Below are positions 1 through 14,669 of a DNA stretch of 14,669 bases, one piece after another. Under the pieces are notes generated by a model. It did not search any database and had not been told where the DNA came from. It was given only the letters and a program-made list of their open reading frames with translations. The DNA is from a virus: UHGV virus genome UHGV-0214741, one strand, 5' to 3'. Made by a program: the position numbers and the translations under genes. Position 1 is the first letter of the stretch; each line of letters starts with the position of its first letter.

Positions 1-16
1 CAGTACCCTTTTCCAT
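1..16 (-). CDS. cspD: 5' end of cold-shock-like protein CspD (partial, continues beyond window start)
   Basis: Reverse complement of 1-16 reads ATG GAA AAG GGT ACT G = M-E-K-G-T-(V), the CspD N-terminus as I recall it. The opposite flank carries clpS, the divergent neighbour of cspD in E. coli-type genomes. Only 5 codons are visible. Confidence 0.6.
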
Positions 17-236
17 GCTTCGACATCCTTCGCAAATCTTATACAAGTAAGATGGAATAAACCGGGGTCAGAGAGGGGGCTGTTCAAAACCTCGCCAACT
101 CTAGAAATACAATTTAGAGAATTAGGGCGAGCCGTCAAGCATTTGACAGGGGACAAGGGGCAGGTATGAATCAAAAATTTGAAGCAGTTAACGCTATTGA
201 CAGGAATGTGACAGATGTCGCTGATGCCAACGATAG

Positions 237-253
237 ATGATAGTTATTTATCA
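237..253. repeat. Candidate attL core (ATGATAGTTATTTATCA)
   Basis: Matches 14530-14546 at 16 of 17 positions; also an imperfect dyad (TGATAG-TTAT-YTATCA). Both copies are preceded by GCCAA a few bases upstream. Confidence 0.45.
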
Positions 254-257
254 GTTA

Positions 258-400
258 GTGTTCGCGGGTGTTCGTCGTGGTGTATCTATCTCATTTATTG
301 CTATGATTATAAAGGAAAATTTCGTTTTTCTTGTTCGCCCTTGTTCGTCGCTGTTTGCCCTTGTACGATGCACGGTGTAGTCAATGGTGTAGTTAATTTT
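258..400. repeat. Left arm repeat block: TTGTTCG-type 10 bp repeats (258-280 and a tandem array 331-370) followed by tandem 12 bp GGTGTAGTYAAT x2 (374-397)
   Basis: Seen directly: GTGTTCGCGG, GTGTTCGTCGTGG, then TTGTTCGCCC / TTGTTCGTCG / CTGTTTGCCC / TTGTACGATG as four consecutive 10 bp units, then ACGGTGTAGTCAATGGTGTAGTTAATTTT. The same architecture recurs at 14401-14461. Position next to int and att suggests arm-type recombinase or excisionase binding sites. Confidence 0.6.
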
Positions 401-411
401 GATGACCGGAA

Positions 412-2288: not shown

Positions 2289-2305
2289 AGGGGAGCATAT
2301 GACAT

Positions 2306-2335
2306 ATAAAACAAAGGCGACCGGGGGCGGTCGCC
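2306..2335 (-). terminator. Candidate rho-independent terminator for the minus-strand small-gene unit
   Basis: Perfect 8 bp stem GGCGACCG / CGGTCGCC with a 4 nt loop at 2316-2335. On the minus strand it is followed by TTTGTTTTAT (complement of 2306-2315). Confidence 0.45.
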
Positions 2336-2402
2336 AATGGATACACACTAAACTTGAACGCATCACCAACAATGCCACATTTGCGGCTGGTGGGCAATGT
2401 GA

Positions 2403-2591
2403 TCAGTCAGATTTGGTTCGTTCCAAGGTTTGCAACGAGAGCTTTTTCCTGTGCTCTTTAAGGAATTTCTCAAGAGCAAAAGCACATGGCGCGAATCTTT
2501 CTGATTCATGCTCTATCTTTCTGCGCCGTCTTTTCCGTGCCGGTGATAATGTTTTGGTCAATTCTTTATCGGTCATTGTGTTGTCCTGCAT
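2403..2591 (-). CDS. Hypothetical small basic protein (about 57-62 aa)
   Basis: ORF downstream of the RHH gene on the minus strand; highly charged (ARKRRRRKIEHESERF). No convincing SD before the first ATG; the second ATG (codon 6, MTDKEL) has AGGA 7 nt upstream. Could be spurious. Confidence 0.3.
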   Translation of the reverse strand: MQDNTMTDKELTKTLSPARKRRRRKIEHESERFAPCAFALEKFLKEHRKKLSLQTLERTKSD

Positions 2592-2633
2592 AGCAATGCG
2601 CCGTAGTTACTCACACCACGGCGCTGGTGATGG

Positions 2634-2813
2634 TTACTCCTGCTCTTTGGCCTTGCGGCGCTGGCGGCGTTTGATCTCGCCTTTAACGGCAGTAACTATA
2701 AATTGCGCCTTGCTTTCACCTTCATCTAAATTTTTTTCTAAGTCTGCAACAACATCATGCGGGAATCTGGCATTTAACTGTTGCGACTTATTATTTGTTG
2801 AACCTGTTGCCAT
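2634..2813 (-). CDS. Ribbon-helix-helix (Arc/MetJ-like) DNA-binding protein, candidate repressor of the replication operon
   Basis: 59 aa starting from the internal ATG at 2813-2811, which has GAGAGGA 8 nt upstream. MATGSTNNKSQQLNARFPHDVVADLEKNLDEGESKAQFIVTAVKGEIKRR fits the RHH beta-strand / helix / helix pattern (compare Arc FNLRWPREVLDLVRKVAEENGRSVNSEIYQRV). Transcribed divergently from the 3004 operon. Confidence 0.55.
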   Translation of the reverse strand: MATGSTNNKSQQLNARFPHDVVADLEKNLDEGESKAQFIVTAVKGEIKRRQRRKAKEQE

Positions 2814-2833
2814 TACTGAATCCTCTCTAAGTT

Positions 2834-2926
2834 GGTGCGATTCAGTATACACAAAAAAAATTTCAGAGAAAGGCTTGAAGTGCGATTCACTTGCTGATAG
2901 GTTAAAAACGAATGGTGCGATGCACC
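2834..2926. promoter_or_regulatory. Divergent promoter/operator region with three GTGCGAT(T/G)CA repeats
   Basis: GGTGCGATTCAG at 2834-2845, AGTGCGATTCAC at 2879-2890, GGTGCGATGCACC at 2914-2926 (the last is a perfect dyad GGTGC-GAT-GCACC). A TATACT -10-like hexamer on the minus strand overlaps the first site. Confidence 0.4.
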
Positions 2927-3003
2927 AAGCAACAACGCCCCGCAGTGGTGGCACACATGCAGGGCGTCTAACCACCAACGATAGCAACAGTATCGAGGCA
3001 GCT

Positions 3004-3207
3004 ATGAGAAATTATACCAGACACCCGCAAGGGCGGGACTCGTACAACCTGAATAAATACATCTGGCGTTTTATCGCCCTGAGCACGGCACAACCGCGCG
3101 TGATTACCATTGAGGCCACCAGCGAACAGGAAGCACGCCAGCAATCCCCGGCTGGCTACGTGATGGTATTCGCCGCCCGTATTCGTCAGGGGGTGTGCCA
3201 TGCCTGA
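3004..3207 (+). CDS. Hypothetical protein, first gene of the replication operon (67 aa)
   Basis: Internal ATG of the 2299-3207 ORF with GAGG 5 nt upstream; the C-terminal 67 aa have normal composition while the upstream 235 codons do not. The stop overlaps the next ATG (ATGCCTGA). Confidence 0.5.
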   Translation: MRNYTRHPQGRDSYNLNKYIWRFIALSTAQPRVITIEATSEQEARQQSPAGYVMVFAARIRQGVCHA

Positions 3208-3526: not shown

Positions 3527-3826
3527 ATGAGAACATATTTATCTGGCTTGACTGCCAGCGGTTATGCACACCCCAAAATTATCCCCGGCGCTATTTATCT
3601 GGATAAGAACGGTAACAGAGTAACGGTAAAAGAACTGATGTTTGACCGTGTGTATTTTATTCGTGATGGCTATTCATTTCATAGTTCGCTGAACGTGGAG
3701 ATCTTTATTAGCAGATTCCGGCGGGAAATCCCGACTTCCAGAAATAACCATGTGTCACGTGTGGATGTGGATAAAAAACTGCAGGAACTGAAAAACATGA
3801 TTGCCGCGTGGAGAGAGCCGAAATGA
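3527..3826 (+). CDS. Hypothetical protein (99 aa)
   Basis: ORF with GGGGA 9 nt upstream of the ATG. Its stop TGA (3824-3826) overlaps the replication-protein ATG (3823-3825) as ATGA. Hand-counted lines give about 37-42 percent G+C. Confidence 0.6.
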   Translation: MRTYLSGLTASGYAHPKIIPGAIYLDKNGNRVTVKELMFDRVYFIRDGYSFHSSLNVEIFISRFRREIPTSRNNHVSRVDVDKKLQELKNMIAAWREPK

Positions 3827-5640
3827 AAAAAGCGCCAAATTTAAAACACCAGCCGCGTGACAAAATGACGGAAGTCATCATTTTTGCGGGTAGTGATGCG
3901 TGGGCACATGCGAAGCAGTGGCAGGAACAGGACGGGCGACTGGCTGGCGATAACGTGCCACCTGTCTGGCTTGGAGAGCAACAACTTGCCGAACTGGACA
4001 ACCTGCAAATCGTACCGGACGGACGCTATCGCGTGCGTCTCTACCAGGCGGGGTTATTGCGTCCGGGGCTTGTTAATACCATCGGGCAGAAACTGGCAGC
4101 GGCAGGTGTCAGGGATGCTGATTATTACCCTGAAGGAATGCACAGCCAGAAACGGGAGAACTGGCGCGAATATCTGGAACGTGAACGGGCAGAGCAGGCG
4201 GAAAAGAAAAAGGTAGTTGAACTGCCTGTAAAGAAAAAAGAGCGGGTAAAAGACGATAACGCTTCATCACTGGCGCTTAACCAGATGGGAGCAAGTCAAC
4301 GCGGCGAAGTTCTCCTGGCACATTATGGCGGTGAACTGGCGATTCATGCTGACTCTGACACTGTTCACCATTACAACGGCGTTGTATGGGAGCCAGTACA
4401 GGATAAAGAATTACAGCGAGCTATGGCACAGATTTTCATTGATGCGGAGATCAGCTATTCGCAGAACGCCATTAAATCGGCGGTCGATACCATGAAGTTA
4501 AGTTTGCCTGTTATGGGGAATACAGCCCGTAACCTGATTGGATTCAGTAACGGGGTATTTGATACCAGAACAGGTAATTTTCGGGAGCATAACAAAAACG
4601 ACTGGTTGTTAATTGCCAGTGAATTACCTTTCAGCCCACCAGCAGAGGGGGAAACGCTGGCAACACATGCGCCGAATTTCTGGAAGTGGTTACGCCGTTC
4701 GGTGGCTGAGAATGACCGCAAGGCGGATCGCGTACTGGCTGCATTATTCATGGTGCTGGCGAACCGGTACGACTGGCAGTTATTCATTGAGGTAACAGGT
4801 CCAGGGGGAAGTGGTAAAAGCGTGATGGCGGAGATTTGCACCATGCTGGCGGGTAAGGCCAACACAGTATCGGCAAGCATGAAGGCGCTGGAAGATGCAA
4901 GGGAACGCGCGTTAGTGGTTGGCTTTTCGCTGATTATCATGCCGGATATGACCCGCTACGCTGGTGATGGGGCAGGAATTAAGGCCATTACAGGCGGTGA
5001 CAAGGTGGCAATTGACCCGAAACACAAAGCCCCCTACTCAACGCGTATTCCGGCAGTAGTGCTGGCGGTTAACAATAACGCCATGTCATTCAGTGACCGC
5101 AGCGGGGGGATCTCACGTCGTCGGGTGATATTCAATTTTTCGGAAGTTGTACCGGAGAACGAACGCGATCCAATGCTGGCGGAAAAAATAGAAGGTGAGC
5201 TGGCGGTAGTGATTCGCCATCTGCTTACACGGTTTGCTGACCAGGACGAAGCCAGACGCCTGTTATATGAGCAGCAGAAATCTGAAGAAGCACTGGCGAT
5301 AAAGCGAGAGGGGGATTCGCTGGTGGACTTCTGCGGCTATCTCATGGCGTCGGTAATGTGTGATGGCCTGTTAGTGGGTAATGCTGAAATTGTGCCATTC
5401 AGCCCACGCAGGTATCTCTATCATGCCTATCTGGCTTATATGAGGGCACATGGGTTTGGTAAACCTGTAACACTGACGCGCTTCGGTAAAGATATGCCGG
5501 GGGCAATGGCGGAATATGGCAGGGAGTATATGAAACGGAAAACGAAGCACGGTTTGCGTTCAAACGTGACACTGACGGAGGAATCAGAAGACTGGATGCC
5601 ATCATGTGTATCGGTCACTAATGACGATAGCAAAAATTAA
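3823..5640 (+). CDS. Replication protein, phage/plasmid primase P4-family C-terminal domain with SF3-type NTPase (Walker A GPGGSGKS)
   Basis: The ORF track starts at GTG 3808, but ATG 3823 has GGAGAG upstream and an ATGA overlap with the preceding gene. Walker A VTGPGGSGKSV and a Walker-B-like hhhhPD (LIIMPD) are present. It lies immediately upstream of a TGTTCACC iteron array, as for P4 alpha and its ori. Confidence 0.85.
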   Translation: MKKAPNLKHQPRDKMTEVIIFAGSDAWAHAKQWQEQDGRLAGDNVPPVWLGEQQLAELDNLQIVPDGRYRVRLYQAGLLRPGLVNTIGQKLAAAGVRDADYYPEGMHSQKRENWREYLERERAEQAEKKKVVELPVKKKERVKDDNASSLALNQMGASQRGEVLLAHYGGELAIHADSDTVHHYNGVVWEPVQDKELQRAMAQIFIDAEISYSQNAIKSAVDTMKLSLPVMGNTARNLIGFSNGVFDTRTGNFREHNKNDWLLIASELPFSPPAEGETLATHAPNFWKWLRRSVAENDRKADRVLAALFMVLANRYDWQLFIEVTGPGGSGKSVMAEICTMLAGKANTVSASMKALEDARERALVVGFSLIIMPDMTRYAGDGAGIKAITGGDKVAIDPKHKAPYSTRIPAVVLAVNNNAMSFSDRSGGISRRRVIFNFSEVVPENERDPMLAEKIEGELAVVIRHLLTRFADQDEARRLLYEQQKSEEALAIKREGDSLVDFCGYLMASVMCDGLLVGNAEIVPFSPRRYLYHAYLAYMRAHGFGKPVTLTRFGKDMPGAMAEYGREYMKRKTKHGLRSNVTLTEESEDWMPSCVSVTNDDSKN

Positions 5641-5654
5641 ACTTATGGAATAAC

Positions 5655-5883
5655 TGTTCACCACTGTTCACCCTGTCATAAATATCTTTTGTATCAGTAT
5701 GTTATAGGGTGAACAGTTATTTATGAACTGTTCACCAAACTATTCACTGTTCACCTTTTTGATTGTTTATTGAGCTTCAAGGGTGAACAGTGGTGAACAG
5801 TTGGTGAATAGTTTTTGTGAAACTGTTCACCCCTTAACATTATGAATTAAAAGATAAAATATCAAAAGGTGAACAGGTGAAGG
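5655..5883. promoter_or_regulatory. Replication origin: array of TGTTCACC iterons in both orientations with AT-rich spacers
   Basis: Forward TGTTCACC at 5655, 5665, 5729, 5748, 5824. Reverse GGTGAACA at 5708, 5782, 5792, 5868. Degenerate copies at 5803 (GGTGAATA) and 5876 (GGTGAAGG). Several are at 10 bp phasing. TGTTCACC is the P4 ori/crr type I iteron as I recall it. Confidence 0.7.
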
Positions 5884-5927
5884 GTTAAAACGCAAAAATT
5901 TTAATTTACTGCTGTGAGATAAAGCCT

Positions 5928-6173
5928 ATGACAGCGAAGCACACAAAAAAATCACAATCGCACGCCCTTGATTTGACGGAACACTGGTTAAGGGTGTCGA
6001 TAAAAATCATCGACCGCAACGCCGGGGAAGGATATGCGAAAGCACATCCCGAACTGATTAGCTCATTCATGACAACGGCAGCTGCAAACTTTGCCACGCT
6101 GACAGAACGGGAGATTGCCGAAGCGGAACAGGTGACAACCATCAACGTTAAAACCGGAGAGCAGACAGCATGA
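5928..6173 (+). CDS. Hypothetical protein (81 aa)
   Basis: ORF directly after the ori; its stop overlaps the next ATG (ATGA at 6170-6173). No recognisable motif. Confidence 0.5.
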   Translation: MTAKHTKKSQSHALDLTEHWLRVSIKIIDRNAGEGYAKAHPELISSFMTTAAANFATLTEREIAEAEQVTTINVKTGEQTA

Positions 6174-6595
6174 CAGCACAGATAGCGGCTTACGGGCGGC
6201 TGGTGGCTGACCCGCAGTTAAAGACCACCAGCAAGGGTACACAAATGACGATGGCTAGTATGGCGGTCCCCCTTCCGTGCAGCCAGGCAGATGACGGAAC
6301 GGCGATGATGTGGTTATCCGTCCTGGCGTTTGGCAGACAGGCCGACGCACTGGCAAAACACCACAAAGGCGAACTGGTGAGCGTGGCGGGTAACATGCAG
6401 GTAAGCCAGTGGACAGGCCAGAACGGCGAAACGCGGCAGGGCTGGCAGGTTATCGCAGACAGCGTGATCAGTGCGCGAACAGCGCGACCGGGCGGCAAAA
6501 AAGGCCAGCAGGGGCAGGCCACTGACGCACTGAACAGGGCAAAACAGCAGACGGGTCAGCACGATGATCCGTACGGGGACAACATACCGTTTTAG
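6170..6595 (+). CDS. Single-stranded DNA-binding protein (SSB-like, OB fold, acidic DIPF-type C-terminal tip)
   Basis: 141 aa. GRLVADPQL ... WLSVLAFGRQADALAKHHKGELVSVAGNMQVSQWTGQNGETRQGWQVIAD parallels the E. coli SSB OB-fold pattern. It has a Gly/Gln-rich linker and the C-terminus DDPYGDNIPF (compare the SSB tail DDDIPF). Confidence 0.75.
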   Translation: MTAQIAAYGRLVADPQLKTTSKGTQMTMASMAVPLPCSQADDGTAMMWLSVLAFGRQADALAKHHKGELVSVAGNMQVSQWTGQNGETRQGWQVIADSVISARTARPGGKKGQQGQATDALNRAKQQTGQHDDPYGDNIPF

Positions 6596-8912: not shown

Positions 8913-9473
8913 ATGAAAAACACCGATTTTGAAATCCGCACATCTGAACTGACCGCCAGCAATAAAAAGCTGGTGGGGTATGCCGTTCGCTGGAACAGCC
9001 TTTCAGAAATTATCTGGGACGAATTCCGCGAACAGTTCACGCCGGGGGCTTTTGCTGACTATCTGGCGACGGGTAATGATGTGCGCTGCCTGTATGAGCA
9101 TGACTATACCCAACTGCTGGGGCGCACCAAATCCGGCACTCTGGTACTGACTGAGGATAACACCGGGTTACGTTTTGAACTGACACCGCCGGATACCCAG
9201 CTTGGAAAAGATGTGCTTACGCTGGTGGAGCGTGGCGACATTACAGGAATGAGCTTTGGTTTTCGCGCATTATGCGAGGAGTGGAGTATCGCGCAAAAAC
9301 CGTATCTGCGTACCGTAACCGCCGCTGAACTCCGTGAAATCACAATAACGTCGATGCCTGCTTATCCAGAATCTGGCGTGGAGATTGCCCACCGTTCGTT
9401 GTTTGCACAGCACCCTGAATTACGTCCGACAGGAAATAATCGTCATCGCTGGTCTGAGCTGGCGGGGTTGTGA
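8913..9473 (+). CDS. Prohead maturation protease, HK97 family
   Basis: 186 aa; GYAVRWNS ... GAFADYL ... VRCLYEHD ... GLRFEL ... GDITGMSFGF matches the HK97 prohead protease pattern as I recall it. Confidence 0.85.
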   Translation: MKNTDFEIRTSELTASNKKLVGYAVRWNSLSEIIWDEFREQFTPGAFADYLATGNDVRCLYEHDYTQLLGRTKSGTLVLTEDNTGLRFELTPPDTQLGKDVLTLVERGDITGMSFGFRALCEEWSIAQKPYLRTVTAAELREITITSMPAYPESGVEIAHRSLFAQHPELRPTGNNRHRWSELAGL

Positions 9474-14226: not shown

Positions 14227-14400
14227 TGCACAGGGAGGGGCGGGTCAAATCTCTGTACCCTGACGTCTTCCGGACTGCCAGCCCCATCGATTTTTTATAC
14301 CCGCGAAAAATGAAAAACGCTTCACGCTGGTGGGCCTGATGCCGATAACTGGTTTCATGACTGATAGCCGGAAAATGATAACGATTAAAGCGTGTTGATC

Positions 14401-14461
14401 TTTGTTCGTGGTTGTTCGATATTGTTCGTGGAACGGTGTAGTTAATGGTGTAGTTAATTTT
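14401..14461. repeat. Right arm repeat block: TTGTTCG repeats x3 followed by tandem GGTGTAGTTAAT x2
   Basis: TTTGTTCGTGG (14401-14411), TTGTTCGAT (14412-14420), ATTGTTCGTGG (14421-14431), then ACGGTGTAGTTAATGGTGTAGTTAATTTT (14433-14461). This 29-mer matches 372-400 with one mismatch. Confidence 0.6.
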
Positions 14462-14529
14462 ACTGTTTTTGACGAGCTTATTGTTTGCAACTCAATGAAA
14501 AATAAAGGCTAATAAGCCAAATGCTATAA

Positions 14530-14546
14530 ATGATAGTTATCTATCA
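14530..14546. repeat. Candidate attR core (ATGATAGTTATCTATCA)
   Basis: Direct repeat of 237-253 with one mismatch; a perfect dyad TGATAG-TTAT-CTATCA. Confidence 0.45.
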
Positions 14547-14631
14547 TGTGGAGTAGATTGGTCAGGCAAATAAGCTCTTGTCAGCGGCAGGGCGTTCTGC
14601 CGATAACCGTAACCGAAGATGATAACTGACA

Positions 14632-14669
14632 ATGGGTAAAACGAACGACTGGCTGGACTTTGATCAACT
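14632..14669 (+). CDS. clpS: 5' end of ClpS, the ClpAP adaptor protein (partial, runs off window end)
   Basis: ATG GGT AAA ACG AAC GAC TGG CTG GAC TTT GAT CAA = MGKTNDWLDFDQ, which matches the E. coli ClpS N-terminus as I recall it. Confidence 0.8.
   Translation, partial: MGKTNDWLDFDQ

What the first reader, a model, noticed from the sequence alone, without database searches (positions are those of the whole stretch)
5655..5883. P4-type TGTTCACC iteron origin immediately downstream of the replication gene
At least nine perfect copies of TGTTCACC or its complement, plus degenerate copies, are arranged in both orientations with AT-rich spacers, several at 10 bp phasing. This is the iteron recognised by the P4 alpha protein, as I recall it, and supports the replication-protein assignment and an autonomous replicon.
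Basis: partly seen in the sequence, partly recalled or inferred. Interest (0 to 1): 0.4.

Follow-up and report, generated by a model that had tools for sequence, protein, structure and literature searches.

The report
P4-type replication origin of a satellite island
The repeat cluster is real and is almost certainly the replication origin of a capsid-forming phage satellite island of E. coli, built from the same 8-base repeats and the same spacing as the origin of satellite phage P4; it is an ordinary, though so far unannotated, member of a known kind of origin.

Summary
Observation confirmed. There are nine perfect TGTTCACC copies in 5655-5875, against 0.6 expected in the whole window, plus three degenerate copies. 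The true unit is ACTGTTCACC. The array starts 13 bp after the stop codon of the replication gene.

Interpretation supported, with refinements.
- TGTTCACC is the annotated "ori type 1 repeat" of P4.
- The array is a 230-bp imperfect palindrome. Each arm aligns along its whole length with the P4 ori core: six repeats at matching spacing and a 35-36 bp AT-rich gap.
- The replication protein (Rep) is 51% identical to the helicase and origin-binding part of P4 alpha. Its C-terminus matches the solved alpha origin-binding domain, 1KA8, at E 2e-24. It lacks alpha's Zn-ribbon/Toprim primase part.
- In P4 itself the site downstream of alpha is crr, not ori. This island has one compound site only.
- The same two-armed layout lies downstream of rep in EcCICFT073, whose rep-ori was shown experimentally to replicate. 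It also occurs in relatives from many genera, where the repeat sequence changes together with the Rep wing.

The element is a complete capsid-forming phage-inducible island (cf-PICI) between cspD and clpS. The array occurs, unannotated, in 594 of 5,426 complete E. coli genomes.

Verdict: a new member of a known kind, of modest interest. Rep binding and replication activity are inferred, not tested.

The parts
3823..5640 (+). Replication initiator gene (Rep, 605 aa). It has an N-terminal domain of about 125 aa with unknown function, then D5_N, an SF3 helicase, and a C-terminal winged-helix origin-binding domain.
   Evidence: Pfam gives D5_N, DUF5906 and Pox_D5. The protein is 51% identical to P4 alpha residues 320-771 and 49% identical to EcCICFT073 Pri-Rep. 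The start is the ATG at 3823 (MKKAPN), with an ATGA overlap with the upstream ORF; this agrees with the PGAP annotation. It has no Zn_Ribbon_Prim or Toprim domains, which P4 alpha does have.
5311..5601 (+). Coding region of the C-terminal winged-helix origin-binding domain. The wing KRKTKHGLRSN is encoded at 5533-5565.
   Evidence: phmmer against PDB hits 1KA8, the P4 alpha origin-binding domain, at E 1.8e-24 over residues 502-598 of the 610-aa ORF that starts at the GTG at 3808 (residues 497-593 of the 605-aa Rep). Wing changes go together with iteron changes in relatives.
5653..5883 (.). The whole iteron array: a two-armed imperfect palindrome centred near 5768. This is the proposed origin.
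   Evidence: Nine perfect and three degenerate iterons. The two arms align with each other at z 22. The single strand folds into one long hairpin, -55 kcal/mol, z -10. The layout is conserved across genera.
5653..5672 (+). Left arm, outer pair of iterons: ACTGTTCACC ACTGTTCACC, 10-bp phased.
5673..5707 (.). Left 35-bp AT-rich spacer (26% G+C) between convergent iterons. Candidate unwinding region.
   Evidence: It aligns with the 35-bp AT-rich stretch of the P4 ori core.
5708..5717 (-). Left arm, single inverted iteron (GGTGAACAGT).
5727..5755 (+). Left arm, inner triplet: ACTGTTCACC (5727-5736), degenerate ACTATTCAC (5739-5747), ACTGTTCACC (5746-5755).
   Evidence: Relatives have three copies here.
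5756..5781 (.). Central 26-bp spacer (27% G+C), the axis of the dyad.
5782..5812 (-). Right arm, inner triplet: GGTGAACAGT (5782-5791), GGTGAACAGT (5792-5801), degenerate GGTGAATAGT (5803-5812).
   Evidence: Collinear with P4 9310-9340.
5822..5831 (+). Right arm, single inverted iteron (ACTGTTCACC), followed by CCTTAAC as in P4.
5832..5867 (.). Right 36-bp AT-rich spacer (17% G+C) between convergent iterons. Candidate unwinding region.
   Evidence: Homologous to P4 9361-9395.
5868..5883 (-). Right arm, outer pair: GGTGAACAGG (5868-5877) overlapping the degenerate GGTGAAGG (5876-5883).
   Evidence: Relatives have GGTGAACAGGTGAACAC here.
5884..5912 (.). Distal AT-rich block, GTTAAAACGCAAAAATTTTAATTTACTGC. 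Relatives from other genera carry the similar motif TTAAACGCATATTTTTTAATTTTAT at this position. Its role is unknown; it may be a second unwinding element or a promoter for the downstream genes.
   Evidence: Alignment. No sigma-70 consensus was found.
6170..6595 (+). Island-encoded single-stranded DNA-binding protein, two genes downstream of the origin. A likely replication accessory.
   Evidence: Pfam SSB at 1.8e-15. The rep / ori / small ORF / ssb order is conserved in relatives.

Best explanation
Positions 5653-5883 are the Rep-dependent origin of vegetative replication of a capsid-forming phage-inducible chromosomal island (cf-PICI) inserted between cspD and clpS of E. coli.

The origin is a compound version of the P4 ori core. 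Two copies of the 'six type-1 iterons plus 35-bp AT-rich gap' module face each other across a 26-bp centre.

Proposed mechanism:
1. After induction, Rep (3823-5640) binds the roughly 12 ACTGTTCACC iterons through its C-terminal winged-helix domain.
2. The dyad arrangement positions SF3 helicase rings in opposite orientations.
3. The AT-rich gaps bracketed by convergent iterons (5673-5707, 5832-5867) melt, and the island's own SSB coats the strands.
4. Replication then proceeds, probably bidirectionally as in P4.
5. Because Rep lacks alpha's Zn-ribbon/Toprim primase, primers must come from elsewhere: host DnaG, the helper phage, or the uncharacterised N-terminal domain.

What is shown here: repeat enrichment, homology to the P4 ori, homology of Rep to alpha and to 1KA8, conservation of the layout, and Rep-iteron co-variation. 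What is inferred: binding, the melting site, ring orientation, and the priming route.
For: Enrichment: nine perfect copies against 0.6 expected.

Identity of the repeat: the P4 record annotates this 8-mer as 'ori type 1 repeat' in rep_origin and in crr.

Homology to the P4 ori:
- Blastn of 5500-6000 hits the annotated P4 origin.
- Both arms align along their whole length with P4 9300-9420 (z 21-23), including spacer sequence. Alignment to the crr units is weaker (z 9-15).
- Iteron start-to-start spacing is 10, 11, 21, 44, 8 in the right arm and 7, 12, 21, 43, 10 in the left arm, against 10, 11, 22, 43, 10 in P4.

The initiator:
- Rep is 51% identical to alpha residues 320-771.
- Its C-terminus matches the solved alpha origin-binding domain at E 1.8e-24.
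- Alpha binds the origin repeats through this domain (PMC4234260).

Experimental precedent: EcCICFT073 rep plus its downstream ori supports plasmid maintenance, and deleting either one abolishes it (PMC6092414). That Rep is 49% identical to this one. Its ori has the same two-armed grammar with CTGTCTACC iterons.

Conservation: the layout and spacing are kept in nine related loci from seven genera. Iteron columns are 81% conserved against 56% for spacer columns.

Co-variation:
- Relatives with altered wings carry altered iterons in the same layout.
- Two Reps that differ at 9 of 587 residues, two of them in the wing, have different iterons.
- A different Rep family in the same slot brings a different iteron set.

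Uniqueness: this is the only cluster in the complete island.

Host factors: there is no DnaA box, GATC or IHF consensus, which fits a self-contained initiator.
Against: - Nothing here tests binding or replication of this particular element.
- P4 needs two separate cis sites, ori and crr. A single site being sufficient rests on the EcCICFT073 analogy.
- Rep has no recognisable primase, so the P4 mechanism cannot be transferred in full.
- The wing-iteron correlation is not one-to-one. EcCICFT073 and L007 share TGTCTACC-type iterons but have different wings.
- The conservation test treats alignment columns and related sequences as independent.
Confidence: 0.87

Rival explanations
1. The array is a crr-like cis-acting enhancer. 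Rep binds it, but initiation takes place at another site, as in P4, where the cluster downstream of alpha is crr and ori lies elsewhere.
For: The position downstream of rep is that of the P4 crr. Part of each arm also aligns with the crr units, z 9-15.
Against: - There is no second iteron cluster anywhere in the complete island.
- Both arms align better, and along their whole length, with ori than with crr.
- The EcCICFT073 rep plus downstream site alone replicates a plasmid.
- Most full-length alpha loci in other genera also have only the downstream two-armed cluster.
Confidence: 0.05
2. The main role of the array is regulatory. The Rep-binding sites would act as an operator or copy-control (handcuffing) element, or would control transcription into the downstream small-ORF/ssb genes, rather than serving as the start site.
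For: - Iterons in plasmids commonly do both jobs (general knowledge).
- The array lies between rep and the next genes, with no terminator detected.
- A conserved AT-rich block follows it.
Against: - No promoter consensus was found.
- The layout is that of a mapped origin, P4, and of a functionally tested one, EcCICFT073.
- This role would add to the origin function rather than replace it.
Confidence: 0.05
3. The array is a non-replicative palindrome: a packaging (cos/pac) site, integrase arm sites, a single-strand origin of a rolling-circle element, or a chance repeat.
For: The region folds as a long hairpin as single-stranded DNA.
Against: - The hairpin is simply the consequence of the inverted iteron arms.
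- Rep is an SF3 helicase, not a nicking HUH protein.
- The P4 att arm repeats are different 12-mers near int.
- The terminase and HNH genes lie 5-6 kb away.
- Chance is excluded.
- The repeat sequence tracks the Rep DNA-binding domain, not the terminase or the integrase.
Confidence: 0.02

Closest known systems
Satellite phage P4 ori (ori1) and crr with the alpha protein
   Same: - The same 8-mer iteron, TGTTCACC.
- The same module of six iterons at about 10/11/21-22/43-44/10 bp spacing with a 35-bp AT-rich gap.
- Spacer sequence that aligns with P4.
- An initiator with a homologous SF3 helicase and a winged-helix origin-binding domain.
   Different: - P4 has one ori module 2.4 kb upstream of alpha plus two direct 120-bp crr units downstream. 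Here, two inverted ori-type modules are fused in one site directly downstream of rep.
- There are no type 2 repeats.
- No Cnr homologue was detected.
- Rep lacks the Zn-ribbon/Toprim primase.
- The host element is a capsid-forming PICI, not a P4-like satellite.
EcCICFT073 pri-rep/ori, the Gram-negative PICI replicon (Fillol-Salom et al. 2018, PMC6092414)
   Same: - The ori lies directly 3' of rep.
- There are two sets of iterons with AT-rich stretches, and the two-armed grammar and spacings are identical.
- Rep is 49% identical, including the shared N-terminal domain.
- The same flanking genes: DUF4222 upstream, a small ORF and ssb downstream.
   Different: - The iteron is CTGTCTACC instead of ACTGTTCACC.
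- The DNA-binding domain is only about 33% identical.
- The CFT073 island is a classical PICI without its own capsid and terminase set.
Staphylococcal SaPI rep-ori (recalled from Ubeda et al. 2007; not retrieved here)
   Same: [quoted passage not shown]
   Different: The Rep proteins and iteron sequences are unrelated. This resemblance comes from memory and from its mention in PMC6092414, not from a test here.
Origins of SF3-helicase viruses: SV40 large T antigen and papillomavirus E1 (general knowledge)
   Same: Initiator-binding sites in dyad symmetry next to AT-rich DNA, bound by a DNA-binding domain fused to an SF3 helicase.
   Different: There is no sequence relationship, and the DNA-binding fold is different. 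This is an analogy for the mechanism only.

Membership tests
P4 ori1-type origin (alpha-type replicon) | Clustered type 1 iterons TGTTCACC in both orientations | tested here: met
   Nine perfect and three degenerate copies. The P4 annotation confirms the motif.
P4 ori1-type origin (alpha-type replicon) | Six iterons at near-helical spacing plus a 35-bp AT-rich stretch. This is the minimal ori1 as I recall it from Tocchetti et al. 1999, a paper not held by the tools. | tested here: met
   Met twice, once in each arm. The spacing and AT gap match P4 coordinates 9310-9413.
P4 ori1-type origin (alpha-type replicon) | A cognate initiator with an alpha-type winged-helix origin-binding domain and an SF3 helicase | tested here: met
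   1KA8 at E 1.8e-24; 51% identity to alpha residues 320-771.
P4 ori1-type origin (alpha-type replicon) | The initiator carries a DnaG-type primase domain (Zn ribbon plus Toprim) | tested here: not met
   Pfam finds these domains in alpha but not in this Rep. The model of the N-terminal domain has no significant PDB match. The Toprim matches in the viral library are all sub-threshold, E 0.013 or worse.
P4 ori1-type origin (alpha-type replicon) | A bipartite cis requirement: ori plus a distant crr | tested here: not met
   There is a single cluster in the complete island. Whether one site is enough functionally cannot be tested here.
P4 ori1-type origin (alpha-type replicon) | Type 2 repeats next to ori, and a Cnr copy-number regulator | tested here: not met
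   No enrichment of CAYTTAAAGY. No similarity of the upstream ORFs to P4 ORF106, which I take to be Cnr.
P4 ori1-type origin (alpha-type replicon) | Rep binds the iterons and the site supports Rep-dependent replication | not testable with these tools
   Needs EMSA or footprinting and a plasmid maintenance assay.
Gram-negative PICI pri-rep/ori replicon | The ori lies immediately 3' of rep, with two sets of iterons and AT-rich DNA | tested here: met
   Definition from PMC6092414 Fig. 2 legend.
Gram-negative PICI pri-rep/ori replicon | Rep is homologous to a validated PICI Pri-Rep | tested here: met
   49% identity over the full length to EcCICFT073 Rep. The ori layout is the same.
Gram-negative PICI pri-rep/ori replicon | The rep-ori pair behaves as an exchangeable cassette within an int-alpA island | tested here: met
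   The same flanks hold RepA-type or DUF927-type modules, and the RepA-type one examined brings its own iterons. An identical cassette sits in a different island in strain KSC64. int and alpA are present.
Capsid-forming PICI (cf-PICI) | int, alpA and rep, then capsid-protease-portal-connector, then hnh-terS-terL, with no tail genes | tested here: met
   Pfam assignments and the PGAP map of a 98% identical island between cspD and clpS. Definition from bioRxiv 10.1101/2022.09.08.507074.

The most novel reading that the evidence does not exclude
One iteron code (TGTTCACC), read by one type of winged-helix domain, is shared by three otherwise unrelated satellite families that live in the same enterobacterial hosts: P4-like satellites, classical PICIs and capsid-forming PICIs.

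Their initiators could therefore fire, or block, each other's origins, giving cross-activation or incompatibility between satellites.

Specificity appears to be re-programmable by as few as two wing residues. The primase-less Rep would need a priming route different from that of P4.

The single two-armed site would combine the ori and crr functions that P4 has split apart.
Probability: 0.3. Interest if true: 0.55.

Novelty: new member of a known kind. Interest (0 to 1): 0.3.

Why it matters
**Annotation.** The result gives the exact origin of a widespread E. coli satellite. The array is in 594 of 5,426 complete genomes and carries no feature in RefSeq. The cf-PICI paper does not mention an origin.

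**Experiments it makes possible.** It links the cf-PICI and PICI replicons to the biochemically studied P4 alpha/ori system. Existing knowledge can therefore guide experiments: the solved origin-binding domain, and the minimal ori as I recall it.

**Naming.** The 'DNA primase family protein' label on these Reps is misleading, because the primase domain is absent.

**DNA recognition.** The comparative data supply natural specificity variants, with wing changes paired to iteron changes. These could be used to work out how this winged helix reads DNA, and to predict which satellites can cross-talk.

None of this changes the picture of how such origins work.

Tried and rejected
1. **In-gene copy as a second site.** I considered whether the tenth copy, ACTGTTCACC at 4360-4369, is a second site analogous to P4 ori2. 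Rejected: it encodes TVHH, and its synonymous positions are not conserved.
2. **N-terminal domain as a decayed Toprim primase.** The AlphaFold model is confident (pLDDT 82.6), but Foldseek finds nothing significant in PDB (best E 0.08). In the viral library it finds only an uncharacterised phage protein (E 7e-4) and sub-threshold Toprim entries. Unresolved, and not used in the argument.
3. **Cnr homologue upstream of rep.** None by BLASTP or NCBIfam.
4. **P4 type 2 repeats.** Not enriched.
5. **DnaA boxes, GATC and IHF sites in 5600-5960.** None.
6. **Promoters and terminators in 5500-6000.** None by consensus scan.
7. **Rfam families in the window.** None. No tRNA genes either.
8. **Primary P4 papers (Ziegelin 1993, Tocchetti 1999).** Not held. 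A text search for the motif returned only primer sequences. Statements taken from those papers are marked as recollection.
9. **Strain KSC64 as the source of the window.** Only the 2.4-kb rep-ori segment is identical. The rest of that island differs.

Full report
**1. The observation**

An exact search finds ten TGTTCACC in the 14,669-bp window, and nine of them lie in 5655-5875. Dinucleotide-preserving shuffles give 0.61 on average and never more than 3.
- Five copies are on the + strand and four on the - strand.
- Eight of the nine extend to the 10-mer ACTGTTCACC.
- Three degenerate copies complete the pattern: GGTGAATAGT at 5803-5812, ACTATTCAC at 5739-5747, and GGTGAAGG at 5876-5883.
- The region has 33-35% G+C against about 52% in the flanking genes. 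The spacers themselves have 11-27%.
- The first copy begins 13 bp after the stop codon of the upstream gene.

The tenth copy, at 4360-4369 inside that gene, encodes T-V-H-H of the conserved peptide DSDTVHHY. Relatives write the same peptide with other codons, so it is a coincidence of coding.

**2. Anatomy**

The array is not a loose scatter. Reading left to right, with > for TGTTCACC on the + strand and < for the - strand, and ' marking a degenerate copy:

[>>] - 35 bp AT-rich - [<] - 9 bp - [> >' >] - 26 bp centre - [< < <'] - 9 bp - [>] - 36 bp AT-rich - [< <']

- The left arm is the reverse complement of the right arm. Local alignment gives z 22 against shuffles, and inverted repeats I1 and I2 appear.
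- As a single strand, the 251 bases fold into one long imperfect hairpin of -55 kcal/mol, z -10.
- Each AT-rich gap is bracketed by convergent iterons.

**3. Comparison with P4**

The P4 record (NC_001609) annotates TGTTCACC as 'ori type 1 repeat'. There are six copies in the replication origin (9310-9413) and ten in crr (4291-4590).
- Blastn of window 5500-6000 hits the annotated P4 origin.
- Each arm aligns along its whole length with P4 9300-9420 (z 21-23). The alignment includes spacer sequence such as TTCACCC(C/T)TTAAC and the A-rich run before the last iteron pair. Alignment to the 120-bp crr units is partial (z 9-15).
- Iteron start-to-start spacings are 10, 11, 21, 44, 8 in the right arm and 7, 12, 21, 43, 10 in the left arm (read as reverse complement). 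In P4 they are 10, 11, 22, 43, 10.
- From memory, since the paper is not held: Tocchetti et al. 1999 delimited the minimal P4 ori1 to 123 bp with six type I iterons and a 35-bp AT-rich region, and found it sensitive to small insertions. Each arm here is such a module.

**4. The initiator**

The upstream gene is 3823-5640. The true start is the ATG giving MKKAPN, which overlaps the preceding stop as ATGA and agrees with PGAP.
- It encodes D5_N, an SF3 helicase (DUF5906) and a Pox_D5-type C-terminus.
- It is 51% identical to P4 alpha over alpha residues 320-771.
- Its C-terminus matches PDB 1KA8, the alpha origin-binding winged helix, at E 1.8e-24.
- That domain binds the repeats of the P4 origin (PMC4234260, citing Ziegelin and Lanka 1995 and Yeo et al. 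2002).
- Unlike alpha, the protein has no Zn-ribbon or Toprim primase domain. Its first 125 residues or so form a separate domain.

That N-terminal domain is also found fused to RepA-type and DUF927-type replication proteins. A confident AlphaFold model (pLDDT 82.6) has no significant match among solved structures. The only significant viral-library match is an uncharacterised protein. Toprim entries appear only below threshold. I had suspected a decayed Toprim, and this leaves that idea unresolved.

**5. The element**

The window holds, in order:
- int and alpA;
- an Icd-like gene and a DUF4222 gene;
- rep and the array;
- a small ORF and ssb;
- capsid, prohead protease, portal and connector;
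- HNH, TerS and TerL.

There are no tail genes. A 98% identical island lies between cspD/yljB and clpS in another E. coli strain. This is the gene order that defines capsid-forming PICIs of Proteobacteria (bioRxiv 10.1101/2022.09.08.507074). That paper does not mention an origin. Because the window spans the whole island, the array is its only iteron cluster.

**6. Functional precedent**

Fillol-Salom et al. 2018 (PMC6092414) describe Gram-negative PICI origins as two sets of iterons flanking AT-rich DNA, directly downstream of pri-rep. They showed that EcCICFT073 rep plus ori maintains a temperature-sensitive plasmid, and that deleting either one does not.

I fetched that locus. Its Rep is 49% identical to this one over the full length. 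Its origin has exactly the same two-armed grammar and spacings, written with CTGTCTACC instead of ACTGTTCACC. The window's array is thus an architectural homologue of a tested origin.

**7. Comparative evidence that the repeats are Rep sites**

Eighty related loci were fetched from other species. In nearly all of them the most repeated 8-mer in the 450 bp downstream of rep is an iteron.
- In nine related loci from Raoultella, Kluyvera, Pluralibacter, Citrobacter, Pectobacterium and Serratia, and likewise in a Klebsiella locus, the layout and spacings match the window. In the ten-sequence alignment, iteron columns are 81% conserved against 56% for spacers. The Mann-Whitney p value is 1e-7, but columns and sequences are not independent.
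- The iteron changes with the Rep DNA-binding domain. In locus L007 the helicase is 93% identical and the DNA-binding domain only 67%. The putative recognition helix is almost unchanged (one residue differs), the wing carries a five-residue insertion, and the iteron is TGTCTACC.
- Other wings go with ACTGTCCGC, CTCTCCACC (GGTGGAGA on the other strand) or TGTATACC.
- L081 and L083 differ at 9 of 587 residues, two of them in the wing (N559T, M562V). L081 has GGTATACAC iterons. L083 has mostly ATGAACAC, with a few residual old copies.
- Where an unrelated RepA-type helicase occupies the same slot, the intergenic repeats become AAAAGTGAGG.

The correlation is not a simple code: EcCICFT073 and L007 share an iteron type but have different wings.

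**8. P4 is the unusual one**

In about 45 of about 55 loci with a full-length alpha-type Rep (mostly 800-830 aa), from Xenorhabdus, Photorhabdus and Zobellella, the type 1 cluster is a two-armed array of about 210 bp. It starts about 43 bp after the rep stop, and there is no second cluster within the 3 kb of upstream sequence held. Only P4 (ori at -2.4 kb plus two crr units) and one Pantoea locus show an upstream cluster.

It does not describe P4 itself, where that position is occupied by crr.

**9. Mechanism**

This step is inferred.
1. Rep is produced after induction. It binds the roughly twelve iterons through its winged helix.
2. The dyad places helicase rings head to head.
3. The AT-rich gaps melt, and the island's SSB coats the strands.
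4. No DnaA box, GATC or IHF consensus is present, which fits an initiator that acts on its own.
5. Priming cannot follow the P4 route, because the primase domain is missing. Host DnaG, the helper phage, or the unknown N-terminal domain are the candidates.

**10. Rival explanations**
- *A crr-like enhancer with initiation elsewhere* is unlikely, because there is no second cluster and the CFT073 rep-ori fragment suffices.
- *A regulatory or copy-control role* is compatible with the origin function but would be secondary to it. No promoter or terminator consensus was found.
- *A packaging site, att site, rolling-circle origin or chance repeat* are excluded by the enrichment, by the type of Rep, and by the fact that the repeat tracks the Rep DNA-binding domain.

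**11. Distribution and novelty**
- The rep-ori segment is at least 80% covered in 656 of 5,426 complete E. coli genomes.
- The intergenic array alone is in 594 genomes, with up to six matching places in one genome and no annotated feature.
- The whole island is in 28 genomes.
- An identical cassette sits in a different, non-capsid island in strain KSC64.

The array is therefore a new, unannotated member of a known kind of origin: the P4 ori1 type, and the PICI rep-ori type. The comparative findings are worth a note but do not overturn anything. They are the two-armed compound site as the family norm, the primase-less Rep, and the wing-iteron switches.

Noticed in passing
window 3823-4200 (Rep residues 1-125): The N-terminal domain of Rep is a portable module. 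Near-identical copies are fused to SF3 (D5_N), RepA/AAA_25 and DUF927 replication proteins in other E. coli islands. The AlphaFold model is confident (pLDDT 82.6) and shows an alpha/beta fold. It has no significant PDB match, and the one significant viral-library match is an uncharacterised phage protein. The function is unknown; it could be a docking site for a host or helper factor.
   Followed up: partly
L081 (Pseudocitrobacter faecalis) and L083 (Escherichia sp. ESNIH1), about 330 bp downstream of the rep stop in each: The two Reps differ at only 9 of 587 residues, including N559T and M562V in the wing. Their origins use different iterons: GGTATACAC in L081 and mostly ATGAACAC in L083. L083 still holds a few of the other type. 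This looks like a specificity switch caught in progress.
   Followed up: partly
L025-L077 (Xenorhabdus, Photorhabdus and Zobellella loci with full-length alpha): Most full-length alpha-type genes are followed by a single two-armed type 1 array, with no second cluster within 3 kb upstream. The split ori/crr of P4 therefore seems to be the exception in its own family.
   Followed up: partly
window 5884-5912: An AT-rich block just after the last iterons (GTTAAAACGCAAAAATTTTAATTTACTGC). Relatives from other genera carry the similar motif TTAAACGCATATTTTTTAATTTTAT at the same position. No promoter consensus was found, and its role is unknown.
   Followed up: partly
L090 (E. coli KSC64, NZ_CP018840, 441820-444212): A rep-ori segment 100% identical over 2,393 bp sits in a different island, with another integrase and no capsid set of its own, inserted in a prophage terminase gene. 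The cassette moves between classical and capsid-forming islands.
   Followed up: partly
window 2299-3207: The 302-aa ORF listed mechanically is probably not one gene. In a 98% identical island PGAP annotates a 67-aa Icd-like protein (about window 3001-3204) and a YlcI/YnfO gene on the opposite strand (about 2622-2801).
   Followed up: partly
window 3823-5640 and RefSeq homologues: These Reps are annotated 'DNA primase family protein' or 'pri-rep', yet they lack the Zn-ribbon and Toprim domains that make P4 alpha a primase. The name is inherited from the P4-family C-terminal model (TIGR01613, which here scores below its cut-off).
   Followed up: yes
L002 (LR881103.1, 'Escherichia phage vB_KppS-Ant', 16.5 kb): This record, deposited as a phage from an induced prophage, has the gene set of a capsid-forming PICI, with a Rep 75% identical to this one and the same two-armed array. 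It is likely a satellite rather than a phage.
   Followed up: no
window 1-411 and 14350-14669: The window ends match the chromosomal cspD/yljB and clpS neighbourhood, so the window spans the complete island of about 14 kb. No tRNA gene is present at the insertion site.
   Followed up: partly
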